The notes beneath the pieces are model-generated. The model was not told the DNA's origin. It was given only the letters and a program-made list of their open reading frames with translations, and ran no database searches. From Deltaproteobacteria bacterium (GTDB lineage Bacteria > UBA10199 > 2-02-FULL-50-16 > JAJFLM01), in NCBI GenBank assembly GCA_021772655.1, contig JAJFLM010000335.1:34941-98940 (forward strand): DNA of 64,000 bases, written 5' to 3'. Both the position numbers and the translations under genes were made by a program. Below are positions 46,479 to 46,742 of the stretch, piece by piece (position 1 is the first letter of the stretch; every line of letters starts with the position of its first letter).

Positions 46479-46548
46479 TTACTGGCCGAAGGAAAAGGGT
46501 TATCTTCAATTGGTGAAACAACTCCCTTTTTCATTACCTAGCCAGTAA
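46479..46548 (+). ncRNA. Y-RNA-like element C
   Basis: Starts 7 nt after the Ro60 stop. Closing helix TTACTGGC/GCCAGTAA next to CCGAAGG. Second helix GGAAAAGGG/CCCTTTTTC. Apical GGTTATCTTCAATTGGTG resembles, from memory, the vertebrate Y RNA segment GUUAUCUCAAUUG. Confidence 0.7.
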
Positions 46549-46556
46549 TTAGTTTT

Positions 46557-46672
46557 GAATAAGCCGAAAGAGATACGGTTATTTTGGTTCGAGTCCGAAT
46601 AGTCTTAACTACAAAGTAGAAGACTATTGCCTAAGTTGGTAAGGCACCCGTTTTTCAAACACTAGCTTATTC
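46557..46672 (+). ncRNA. Y-RNA-like element D (YrlA-type, with a permuted tRNA-like module)
   Basis: Closing helix GAATAAGC/GCTTATTC next to CCGAAAG, then ACGG/CCGT. Next come TTAT, T arm TTTGG-TTCGAGT-CCGAA, a 7-bp hairpin TAGTCTT/AAGACTA, and TT + D arm GCCT-AAGTTGGTA-AGGC. Confidence 0.7.
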
Positions 46673-46681
46673 TTATGATGT

Positions 46682-46742
46682 AACAGGCCGAAGTTATAAG
46701 GTTACCCGAATTTTTTTACCCTTATAACGCAACTTGTCTGTT
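46682..46742 (+). ncRNA. Y-RNA-like element E
   Basis: Closing helix AACAGGC-C-GA / TT-GTCTGTT with a bulged C, as in elements A and B. Upper 9-bp helix GTTATAAGG/CCTTATAAC. Apical GGTTACCCG. Confidence 0.65.

What the first reader, a model, noticed from the sequence alone, without database searches (positions are those of the whole stretch)
46479..46742. Three tandem Y-RNA-like genes immediately downstream of Ro60
- Starting 7 nt after the Ro60 stop there are three consecutive elements: 46479-46548, 46557-46672 and 46682-46742.
- In each, the 5' and 3' ends pair into a long helix flanking a conserved 5'-(G/C)CCGAA(A/G)G-3' segment. An upper helix and an apical GGTTA(T/C)C motif follow.
- In element E, and in A and B upstream, the helix reads 5'-GG(C/T)-C-GA / 5'-TT-(G/A)TC(T)-3'. 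That gives a single bulged C followed by G-U and A-U pairs.
- From my recollection of human Y1 (GGCUGGUCCGAAGG... / ...CACUUGACUAGUC), this is the arrangement of the Ro-binding helix of metazoan Y RNAs.
- The stretch GGTTATCTTCAATTGG in element C also resembles hY1 GUUAUCUCAAUUG.
- Multiple diverged Y RNAs next to one Ro gene suggest several distinct RNP specificities.
Basis: partly seen in the sequence, partly recalled or inferred. Interest (0 to 1): 0.75.

Follow-up and report, generated by a model that had tools for sequence, protein, structure and literature searches.

The report
Phage Y RNA genes beside Ro60
An uncultured ~120-kb phage carries a Ro60 gene flanked by five small RNA genes (three just after it, two upstream among tRNA genes) that have the hallmarks of Y RNAs, the known RNA partners of Ro60; this is a new example of a known system, though its short forms look unusually like animal Y RNAs.

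Summary
Three stem-loop elements lie between the Ro60 stop codon (46472) and tRNA-Val (46749): C 46480-46547, D 46558-46671 and E 46682-46742.

Each has:
- a 7-8 bp closing stem;
- the bacterial Y-RNA motif GNCGAAN0-1G with a bulged C;
- an 8-9 bp upper stem ending in GG;
- a UUAYC motif (UUAUU in D).

D also carries a permuted tRNA-like module (T arm, closed acceptor-like stem, D arm). It matches Rfam YrlA over its full length, but below threshold.

Two more copies lie upstream between tRNA genes: A 43839-43965 (tRNA-like) and B 44060-44126.

A covariance model built only from sequences outside the window finds exactly these five in 64 kb (E 2e-10 to 1e-3).

The same RNA family gave 142 hits in 63 of 89 viral Ro60 loci and 106 hits across 80 bacterial Ro60 loci. 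Nearly all are on the Ro60 strand, and covariation is strong.

These are therefore new members of the known prokaryotic and phage Y RNA class (Chen et al. 2014), most likely cut from the tRNA-array transcript and bound by the phage Ro60.

Modest novelty: arrays of five to six copies, and short forms whose relatives pass Rfam's threshold for nematode stem-bulge (Y-homologue) RNAs.

The parts
44871..46472 (+). Ro60 (TROVE + vWA) gene, GTG start, 533 aa
   Evidence: Pfam TROVE 6e-35 and vWA_Ro60 2e-54. PDB: 1YVP 393 bits, 2NVO 393 bits, human 9NEN 387 bits.
46480..46547 (+). Y RNA C (short form). Lower stem UUACUGGC/GCCAGUAA (46479-46486 / 46541-46548); CGAA 46487-46490; upper stem GGAAAAGGG/CCCUUUUUC (46491-46499 / 46524-46532); UUAUC 46500-46504; 3' motif CUAG variant.
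   Evidence: R2 44.5 bits, E 9e-9; R1 37.7 bits; MFE z -2.5; weak Rfam Y_RNA alignment, 12.9 bits.
46558..46671 (+). Y RNA D (YrlA type). Lower stem 46557-46564 / 46665-46672; CGAA 46565-46568; upper stem 46571-46578 / 46647-46655; UUAUU 46579-46583; T arm 46583-46599 (loop UUCGAGU); closed 7-bp acceptor-like stem 46600-46606 / 46620-46626; D arm 46629-46645.
   Evidence: Rfam YrlA RF02553 33 bits, E 9e-5, model positions 1-114; R2 24.2 bits, E 9.5e-4; MFE z -2.9.
46682..46742 (+). Y RNA E (short form with a small U-rich loop). Lower stem AACAGGC/GUCUGUU; bulged C46689; G.U and A-U pairs; upper stem GUUAUAAGG/CCUUAUAAC; UUACC 46702-46706.
   Evidence: R2 51.5 bits, E 1.7e-10, from a model containing no window sequence; MFE z -2.3.
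43839..43965 (+). Y RNA A (YrlA type, with V hairpin, T arm GGUUCGAAUCC, acceptor-like stem-loop and D arm), lying between tRNA-Asp and tRNA-Glu.
   Evidence: R2 40.5 bits, E 9e-8; Rfam YrlA local hit 23.8 bits over the T-AS-D module; fold.
44060..44126 (+). Y RNA B (short form). A paralogue of A without the tRNA-like module, lying between two tRNA-Glu genes.
   Evidence: R2 49.9 bits, E 4e-10. The flanks are 94% and 87% identical to A, with two compensatory double changes in the lower stem.
46749..46822 (+). tRNA-Val(UAC), 6 nt after E. RNase P cleavage here would define the 3' side of E.
   Evidence: ARAGORN; Rfam tRNA 64.2 bits.
43759..44213 (+). tRNA-Asp, tRNA-Glu(UUC) and tRNA-Glu(CUC), which bracket A and B with 4-12 nt spacers.
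   Evidence: ARAGORN; sequence.

Best explanation
C, D and E, together with A and B upstream, are genes for Y RNAs, the non-coding RNA partners of the phage's own Ro60 protein.

Inferred mechanism:
1. The RNAs are transcribed as part of the long + strand tRNA/Ro60 transcript.
2. They are released by the enzymes that process the neighbouring tRNAs. Spacers are only 4-12 nt, and tRNAs directly flank A, B and E.
3. The lower stem, with 5' strand GNCGAA and a bulged C, docks on the outer surface of the Ro60 ring, as in the Xenopus Ro60-Y RNA structure.
4. The variable module then recruits or gates other factors. In C, B and E this module is a small loop. In A and D it is a tRNA-shaped domain with a closed acceptor stem.
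5. By analogy with D. radiodurans, Salmonella and Thermus phage phiLo, the recruited factor is probably a host 3'-5' exoribonuclease such as PNPase.
6. Five different Y RNAs would give one Ro60 several alternative RNP forms.

Shown here: sequence and structure hallmarks, covariation, family membership and genomic association.
Inferred only: expression, processing, Ro60 binding and the effector.
For: - All five elements are on the Ro60 strand, within 1.1 kb upstream or 270 nt downstream of Ro60.
- All five carry the GNCGAAN0-1G motif of bacterial Y RNAs (PMC4201824).
- External model R2 finds exactly these five in 64 kb with filters off.
- Lower and upper stems covary. In 11 seed sequences 96% of cells pair, against 44-47% when partners are slid, and 14 of 18 pairs change on both sides. 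In 122 distinct viral sequences 95.7% pair against 34-49%, with covariation score 0.84 against 0.26.
- The upper stem was also tested on elements not selected for it: cognate duplexes average -10.9 against -5.3 kcal/mol for non-cognate, permutation p<1e-4.
- A and B are paralogues that differ by two compensatory double substitutions in the lower stem.
- D matches YrlA over its full length, and A matches over its T-AS-D module.
- The family gives 142 hits in 63 of 89 viral Ro60 loci, all on the Ro60 strand, and 106 hits across 80 bacterial Ro60 loci, 103 of them on the Ro60 strand.
- The closest relative, L001 (Ro60 57% identical), has five such elements starting 10 nt after its Ro60 stop.
- No + strand terminator-like site, and no excess of promoter-like sites, lies between the tRNAs and the elements.
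- Published precedents: Y RNAs co-transcribed with tRNA in D. radiodurans and at least two Y RNAs per species; phage phiLo Ro60 binds two Yrl RNAs and host PNPase (PMC12135203).
Against: - There are no expression or binding data. The phage is uncultured and matches no GenBank phage closely.
- None of the elements reaches an Rfam gathering score: YrlA 33 bits against 69, Y_RNA 12.9 against 38.
- C and D replace the nearly invariant G.U pair above the bulge (G.U in 112 of 122 relatives) with G/A.
- D has UUAUU rather than UUAYC, and D scores lowest. C and D could therefore be weaker binders or decaying copies.
- The seed sequences for the models were chosen partly by their ability to pair, which inflates the seed covariation counts.
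- The model-made alignment leans towards the modelled structure.
Confidence: 0.85

Rival explanations
1. The elements stay in the Ro60 mRNA as 3'-UTR (C-E) cis-elements. Ro60 binds them to autoregulate its own message or stabilise it, and they are not released as free small RNAs.
For: C starts 7 nt after the stop codon. No + strand terminator-like site follows Ro60. Ro60-binding helices in cis would be a simple feedback device.
Against: A and B have the same anatomy but sit between tRNA genes about 0.8-1 kb upstream of Ro60, where they cannot be its UTR. In relatives the same elements lie upstream, downstream or interleaved with tRNAs. Characterised bacterial Y RNAs are processed from polycistronic precursors.
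Confidence: 0.07
2. They are decayed tRNA genes or tRNA-derived debris of the 28-gene tRNA array and have no function of their own.
For: D and A contain T- and D-arm-like sequences. The region is a tRNA array. Rfam tRNA gives a weak local alignment inside A (13.9 bits).
Against: C, E and B have no tRNA-like parts. In A and D the arms are in permuted order (T, closed acceptor-like stem, D) within a covarying Ro-type helix, exactly as in YrlA. The whole architecture is conserved next to Ro60 in hundreds of loci.
Confidence: 0.02
3. They are chance hairpins, or intrinsic terminators or processing hairpins between genes, and are unrelated to Ro60.
For: Individual MFE z-scores are only -2.3 to -2.9. 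The region is AT-rich.
Against: E-values from a model containing no window sequence run from 1e-10 to 1e-3, and there are no other hits in 64 kb. The non-helical motifs CGAA and UUAYC are conserved at a fixed 9-nt spacing. There are no GC-rich stems followed by U-tracts. The association with Ro60 is strand-specific.
Confidence: 0.02
4. They are real Y-type RNAs, but their main partner is not Ro60. The tRNA-like forms could be decoys for host tRNA-targeting nucleases or for modification enzymes, and the short forms could act through the UUAUC/upper-stem module, as proposed for eukaryotic replication.
For: The elements are embedded in a tRNA array. Salmonella YrlA is a substrate of the tRNA-modifying enzymes TruB and DusA, and M. 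smegmatis YrlA is cleaved by RNase P. UUAUC and the upper stem are needed for the replication activity of sbRNAs independently of Ro60 (PMC4726728).
Against: The strict co-occurrence with Ro60 on the same strand, and the conserved Ro-binding helix, argue that Ro60 is the primary partner. There is no evidence here for any other partner.
Confidence: 0.04

Closest known systems
YrlA (Rfam RF02553; Chen et al. 2014, PMC4201824; structure in Wang et al. 2018, bioRxiv 10.1101/312249)
   Same: For D and A: encoded beside Ro60 on the same strand; GNCGAAN0-1G near the 5' end; YUAY (here UUAU) opening the variable region; then a T arm, a closed acceptor-like stem-loop and a D arm, i.e. a circularly permuted tRNA mimic. 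D gives a full-length alignment to the model.
   Different: Scores are 33 and 23.8 bits, against a gathering score of 69. The host is an uncultured phage rather than a bacterium. The lower stem is a regular 7-8 bp helix with the metazoan-type 3' strand (A/C)CUU(G/A)UC. D has a 7-bp acceptor-like stem extended by a 4-bp hairpin.
Short hairpin Y RNAs of bacteria (S. Typhimurium and M. smegmatis YrlB, D. radiodurans Yrn2)
   Same: For C, E and B: a second, smaller Ro60-associated RNA encoded next to the tRNA-like one. [quoted passage not shown]
   Different: No sequence model exists for YrlB or Yrn2, and BLAST with YrlB found only Salmonella orthologues. Here the short forms make up a large, alignable family with a fixed CGAA-N9-UUAYC geometry.
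Metazoan Y RNAs (Rfam RF00019) and nematode stem-bulge RNAs (RF01656 ceN72-3_ceN74-2)
   Same: Lower stem with a bulged C, 5' GG(U/C)CCGA and 3' CUUG(A/U)C. A 9-nt upper-stem strand ends in GGG and is followed directly by UUAUC at the start of the loop, which is the same spacing as in both Rfam consensus lines. Relatives of the window's short forms score above RF01656's gathering score of 38: L204 at 42.8 and 40.7 bits, L164 at 40.2 bits. The window's Ro60 is as close to Xenopus and human Ro60 as to D. radiodurans Rsr.
   Different: The window's own elements do not reach these thresholds; C scores 12.9 bits against Y_RNA. There is no Pol III-type oligo-U tail. They are co-encoded with Ro60 in a phage, whereas most sbRNAs are not known to bind the nematode Ro60. 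The conserved GUG/CAC of the eukaryotic upper stem is absent.
Thermus phage phiLo Yrl1/Yrl2 with phiRo60 (PMC12135203)
   Same: A phage-encoded Ro60 with more than one adjacent Y-like RNA recognised by a CGAA motif. The RNP binds host PNPase in vitro.
   Different: phiLo Ro60 is very distant (29.5 bits). It has two RNAs upstream rather than five on both sides, and a tRNA-array context is not reported for it.

Membership tests
Prokaryotic Y RNA (Chen et al. 2014 criteria) | Encoded close to a Ro60/Rsr gene on the same strand | tested here: met
   C, D and E lie 7-270 nt after the Ro60 stop. A and B lie 0.75-1.0 kb upstream. All are on the + strand.
Prokaryotic Y RNA (Chen et al. 2014 criteria) | GNCGAAN0-1G motif near the 5' end | tested here: met
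   A GUCGAAUG, B GCCGAAUG, C GCCGAAG, D GCCGAAAG, E GCCGAAG. Motif definition from PMC4201824.
Prokaryotic Y RNA (Chen et al. 2014 criteria) | 5' and 3' ends pair into a stem that carries the Ro-binding sequence | tested here: met
   Each element has a 7-8 bp lower stem. Covariation is seen in relatives and between the paralogues A and B.
Prokaryotic Y RNA (Chen et al. 2014 criteria) | Bound and stabilised by Ro60/Rsr in vivo | not testable with these tools
   Needs immunoprecipitation, EMSA or Northern blots.
YrlA subfamily (RF02553) | tRNA-like module: T arm, acceptor-like stem-loop and D arm in that order, preceded by YUAY | tested here: met
   D: UUAU, T arm 46583-46599, acceptor-like stem 46600-46626, D arm 46629-45 (alignment). 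A likewise. C, E and B lack this module and are not YrlA.
YrlA subfamily (RF02553) | Rfam gathering score of 69 bits | tested here: not met
   D 33 bits, A 23.8 bits. There were no gathering-level hits in the window.
Metazoan Y RNA (RF00019) | Conserved bulged-C lower helix GGUCCGA / UUGACU | tested here: met
   E, B and A have GG(C/U)-C-GA / UU(G/A)UCU. C and D have a G/A in place of the G.U pair.
Metazoan Y RNA (RF00019) | Rfam gathering score of 38 bits | tested here: not met
   C 12.9 bits, E-value 6.3. There was no hit for E or B.
Metazoan Y RNA (RF00019) | Pol III transcript with a 3' oligo-U tail bound by La | tested here: not met
   No U-tract directly follows the 3' arm of any of A-E (B has UUUUU only 3 nt downstream of its arm); the context is a bacterial-type polycistronic tRNA array.
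Nematode sbRNA (RF01656) | Gathering score of 38 bits, with UUAUC at the 5' end of the loop | tested here: inconclusive
   The window elements carry UUAUC or UUACC at the right place but give no reported RF01656 hit. Relatives score 26-43 bits, three of them above 38.

The most novel reading that the evidence does not exclude
The short Ro60-linked RNAs of this phage and bacterial clade are true homologues of animal Y and stem-bulge RNAs, not just analogues. On this reading the whole unit (bulged-C lower stem, 9-nt upper-stem strand, UUAUC) is ancient and moved together with Ro60 between prokaryotes or phages and animals. UUAUC, so far tied to the DNA-replication activity of sbRNAs and Y RNAs, would then be primarily a determinant of the Ro60 RNP. 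This contradicts the review statement that bacterial Y RNAs are 'not homologous with' vertebrate Y RNAs (PMC4726728).
Probability: 0.4. Interest if true: 0.65.

Novelty: new member of a known kind. Interest (0 to 1): 0.42.

Why it matters
Ro60-Y RNA particles are autoantigens in lupus and Sjogren's syndrome. In bacteria they act as adaptors that reprogramme exoribonucleases.

What this locus adds:
- A phage that carries Ro60 with five different Y RNAs inside its tRNA array suggests viruses deploy a multi-headed RNA-surveillance or RNA-decay RNP during infection.
- The five RNAs are a compact natural set of short and tRNA-like variants for dissecting how the variable module selects partners.
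- The family model built here recovers about 250 unannotated Y RNAs around Ro60 genes, including in cultured actinophages whose GenBank records annotate none. It could seed an Rfam family for the short forms.
- The shared CGAA-N9-UUAUC geometry with animal Y and sbRNAs makes the origin of eukaryotic Y RNAs, and the role of UUAUC, directly testable.

Tried and rejected
- Megablast of the locus against GenBank phages found no match.
- The search for related loci with the single Ro60 protein found nothing in the viral collection. An alignment query was needed.
- The exact-protein contig look-up for the window's own Ro60 was not on record, and the cluster look-up gave no name.
- The collection scan with the pattern CCGAA..GGTTATC..ACTTGTC returned 101 loci. 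By my estimate most are chance; only 7 carry Ro60.
- MAFFT alignments of the full elements put the 3' strand of the upper stem out of register. I used a length-homogeneous seed instead and a separate cognate versus non-cognate duplex test.
- Rfam at gathering thresholds reports only tRNAs.
- The hY1-like 'UCAAUUG' after UUAUC is rejected as a conserved feature (5 of 82 elements).
- A terminator or promoter explanation is rejected.
- The 225 nt just upstream of Ro60 (44646-44870) is not Y-like: there are no model hits, and fold z-scores are -1.4 and -0.8.
- Two Wolin-lab reviews were not held in the library.

Full report
**What is there**

The window is part of an uncultured phage.
- PHROG matches include DNA polymerase, DnaB helicase, a second helicase, a sigma factor, NAMPT and large terminase.
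- Its DNA polymerase is only 27% identical to the best match in GenBank phages.
- The locus has no nucleotide match among those phages.
- It carries 28 tRNA genes, all on the + strand, between 37212 and 50806.

Inside this array, ORF 44871-46472 encodes a 533-aa Ro60.
- Pfam: TROVE 6e-35 and vWA_Ro60 2e-54.
- It is equally similar to Xenopus Ro60 (1YVP, 393 bits), D. radiodurans Rsr (2NVO, 393 bits) and human RO60 (9NEN, 387 bits).
- It is far from the Thermus phage phiLo protein (29.5 bits).

**The observation**

Between the stop codon (46470-46472) and tRNA-Val (46749) lie three elements separated by 10-nt spacers: C 46480-46547, D 46558-46671 and E 46682-46742.

Each has the same anatomy:
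- a 7-8 bp closing stem;
- then CGAA, whose C is bulged. This gives GCCGAAG(G) in C and E and GCCGAAAG in D, i.e. the GNCGAAN0-1G motif that Chen et al. defined for bacterial Y RNAs (PMC4201824);
- an 8-9 bp upper stem whose 5' strand ends in GG;
- UUAUC in C, UUACC in E and UUAUU in D;
- a variable module;
- the 3' strand of the upper stem and a short internal loop;
- (A/C)CUUGUC in E, or CUAGC in C and D;
- the 3' arm of the closing stem.

D's variable module is a permuted tRNA mimic:
- T arm 46583-46599 with loop UUCGAGU;
- a 7-bp closed acceptor-like stem, 46600-46606 / 46620-46626;
- D arm 46629-46645.

D aligns over the full length of Rfam YrlA at 33 bits, E 9e-5, which is below the curated 69 bits.

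A simple scanner and a motif search then turned up two more elements upstream.
- A (43839-43965) is YrlA-like and lies between tRNA-Asp and tRNA-Glu.
- B (44060-44126) is short and lies between two tRNA-Glu genes.
- A and B are paralogues: their 5' 33 nt are 94% identical and their 3' 31 nt are 87% identical.
- They differ in the lower stem by two compensatory double substitutions, C-G to U-A and U-A to C-G.

**Is it more than chance, and is the structure real?**

Relatives were collected in four ways:
- L001, the contig encoding the closest Ro60 (57% identity). It is also a tRNA-rich phage-like contig, with five such elements starting 10 nt after its Ro60 stop.
- A pattern scan of viral contigs. 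Most hits are by my estimate chance, but 7 carry Ro60.
- 80 viral Ro60 loci found by protein search.
- 80 bacterial Ro60 loci found by protein search.

Seed alignment. A length-homogeneous seed of 11 short elements supports the two-helix model:
- 96% of cells pair, against 44-47% when partners are slid;
- 14 of 18 pairs change on both sides;
- none of 500 shuffles reaches the observed values.
- These seeds were partly chosen for pairing, so I ran a separate test on the upper stem.

Independent test of the upper stem. I used 82 elements selected only by lower stem and GUUAYC:
- cognate 5'/3' strands fold at -10.9 kcal/mol on average, against -5.3 for non-cognate combinations;
- the cognate partner is the best of 82 in 35 cases;
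- permutation p<1e-4.

Model R1, built from the seed:
- 142 hits at E<=0.01 in 63 of 89 viral Ro60 loci, every one on the Ro60 strand;
- 106 hits across 80 bacterial loci, 103 on the Ro60 strand;
- on the 122 distinct viral hits, 95.7% of cells pair against 34-49% slid, with a covariation score of 0.84 against 0.26. That alignment is fitted to the model and so leans towards it.

Model R2, rebuilt from those 142 sequences, none from the window, and run on the window with filters off:

| Element | Bits | E-value |
|---|---|---|
| E | 51.5 | 1.7e-10 |
| B | 49.9 | 4.3e-10 |
| C | 44.5 | 9e-9 |
| A | 40.5 | 9e-8 |
| D | 24.2 | 9.5e-4 |

The next best hit in 64 kb, on either strand, has E = 1.5.

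**What it is**

These are Y RNAs of the prokaryotic and phage kind.
- Chen et al. (2014) already reported YrlA-like RNAs next to Ro60 in 254 bacteria and 22 phages.
- They showed co-transcription with a tRNA in D. radiodurans.
- They noted a conserved YUAY opening the variable loop.
- The window fits this description point by point. A and D are the tRNA-like type. B, C and E are hairpins, and E has a U7 loop. UUAY corresponds to YUAY.
- Wang et al. (2018) describe YrlA as a circularly permuted tRNA with a closed acceptor stem, which matches D and A.

**How it probably works (inferred)**

- No + strand terminator-like site, and no excess of promoter-like sites, occurs in 43000-47600.
- Spacers to the adjacent tRNAs are 4-12 nt.
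- The RNAs are therefore most likely released from the array transcript by RNase P and the 3' tRNA-processing enzymes, with some trimming.
- The GNCGAA strand of the lower stem then binds the outer face of Ro60, as in 1YVP.
- The variable modules tether or gate effectors. PNPase is the partner documented in D. radiodurans, Salmonella and phage phiLo.
- Five different modules would give alternative RNPs.
- C and D deviate from a nearly invariant G.U pair (G.U in 112 of 122 relatives) by having G/A. Since Ro60 mainly reads the 5' strand this may be tolerated, but they could be weaker ligands.

**Comparison with animal Y RNAs**

- In 84 of 106 distinct viral hits that carry GUUAYC, the spacing between CGAN and UUAYC is exactly 9 nt.
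- That is the same spacing as in the Rfam consensus of vertebrate Y_RNA (CgAa-gguaGUGGG-UUAu) and of nematode stem-bulge RNAs (CGGa-GucgaUGGG-UUAUC).
- Short relatives hit the nematode family RF01656 at 26-43 bits. Three are above its gathering score of 38: a Chthonomonadaceae MAG locus, L204, at 42.8 and 40.7 bits, and viral L164 at 40.2 bits.
- A 2015 review states that bacterial Y RNAs are 'not homologous with' vertebrate Y RNAs, and that UUAUC, conserved in sbRNAs and vertebrate Y RNAs, is needed for sbRNA replication activity (PMC4726728 and PMC4450293).
- The present family suggests the UUAUC module is linked to Ro60.
- However, the window's own elements do not pass those models: C scores 12.9 bits against Y_RNA.
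- The hY1-like 'CAAUUG' is not conserved.

**Novelty and verdict**

- It is a new member of a known kind.
- What is somewhat new: the array size (five copies here and in L001 and L051, six in L124), the interleaving with tRNA genes, and the strength of the resemblance of the short forms to animal Y and sbRNAs.
- Cultured actinophages show the same unannotated arrays: Beuffert 4 hits, JayJay 3, Mareelih 4-5.
- Interest is moderate.

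Noticed in passing
L204 1146-1265, 1648-1771, 2244-2370; L002 ~2463-2622 and ~2714-2870; L176 2160-2288; L232 1853-1958; L244 1767-1875; L157 2126-2248: These are 105-160 nt genes next to Ro60 that the Rfam tRNA model matches end to end (43-59 bits), though ARAGORN calls none. Each has an open 7-bp acceptor stem, a D arm and a T arm (with an encoded CCA in L002). 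The anticodon arm is replaced by the Y-RNA upper stem and Ro-binding helix, closed by a triloop, in the order ..CUUGCCCG-loop-CGGGCCGAAG..UUAUC. This is the un-permuted, tRNA-shaped counterpart of YrlA and would be excised like a tRNA. I found no description of it in the searchable literature.
   Followed up: partly
window 44723-44742 and 44809-44828: A 20-nt exact direct repeat, TCAAGCGGGTGAGAGGCCCG, occurs twice, 86 nt apart, in the 225-nt leader between tRNA-Thr and the Ro60 start. Each copy can form a 4-5 bp hairpin with a UGAGAGG loop. There are no other copies in the window, no Rfam hit and no Y-model hit. Function unknown; it may be a regulatory or processing site for Ro60.
   Followed up: partly
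window 43833-43838, 44054-44059, 46474-46479, 46551-46556; L001 4598-4605, 4768-4777, 4893-4901: A short AGUUU(U/A) leader sits 0-3 nt upstream of the closing stem in A-D and in about half of the ten window and L001 elements. It could be a processing (RNase E-type) signal or a stem extension. I did not test it statistically.
   Followed up: no
L124/L126 4528-4666: This Y-type element has a variable module that is a complete tRNA in normal order (D arm, anticodon arm, T arm; Rfam tRNA 46.9 bits, model positions 4-67) nested inside the Ro-binding and upper stems. It is a third way of combining tRNA and Y modules.
   Followed up: no
L266 (Mycobacterium phage JayJay PQ449569) 2063-2407; L265 (Streptomyces phage Beuffert) 69-351 and 1067-1292; L268 (Gordonia phage Mareelih) 2225-2368 and 4825-5456: Cultured actinophages carry 3-5 Y-model hits near Ro60, often interleaved with tRNA or tmRNA genes. 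None is annotated in GenBank. In JayJay the 'hypothetical protein' CDS 234 (L266 2094-2255) overlaps two of the hits and may be a miscall.
   Followed up: partly
L204 1064-1135 and 1899-1968; L164 4311-4383: Prokaryotic and viral RNAs next to Ro60 score above the curated gathering score of the Rfam family for nematode sbRNAs (RF01656; 40-43 bits against 38). Automated Rfam annotation would therefore label them as nematode RNAs.
   Followed up: partly
window 43219-43401, 43443-43624; L001 5581-6140: Small Cys-rich ORFs (CxxC pairs), and in L001 an HNH-like ORF, are interspersed between tRNA genes of the array. They may be homing-endonuclease or zinc-ribbon genes. Not examined.
   Followed up: no
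window 37212-50806: An array of 28 tRNA genes, all on the + strand, surrounds Ro60. Ro60 also sits within or beside tRNA arrays in L001, L152, Beuffert and Mareelih, which suggests a recurrent functional or transcriptional link between phage tRNA sets and the Ro60/Y RNA module.
   Followed up: partly
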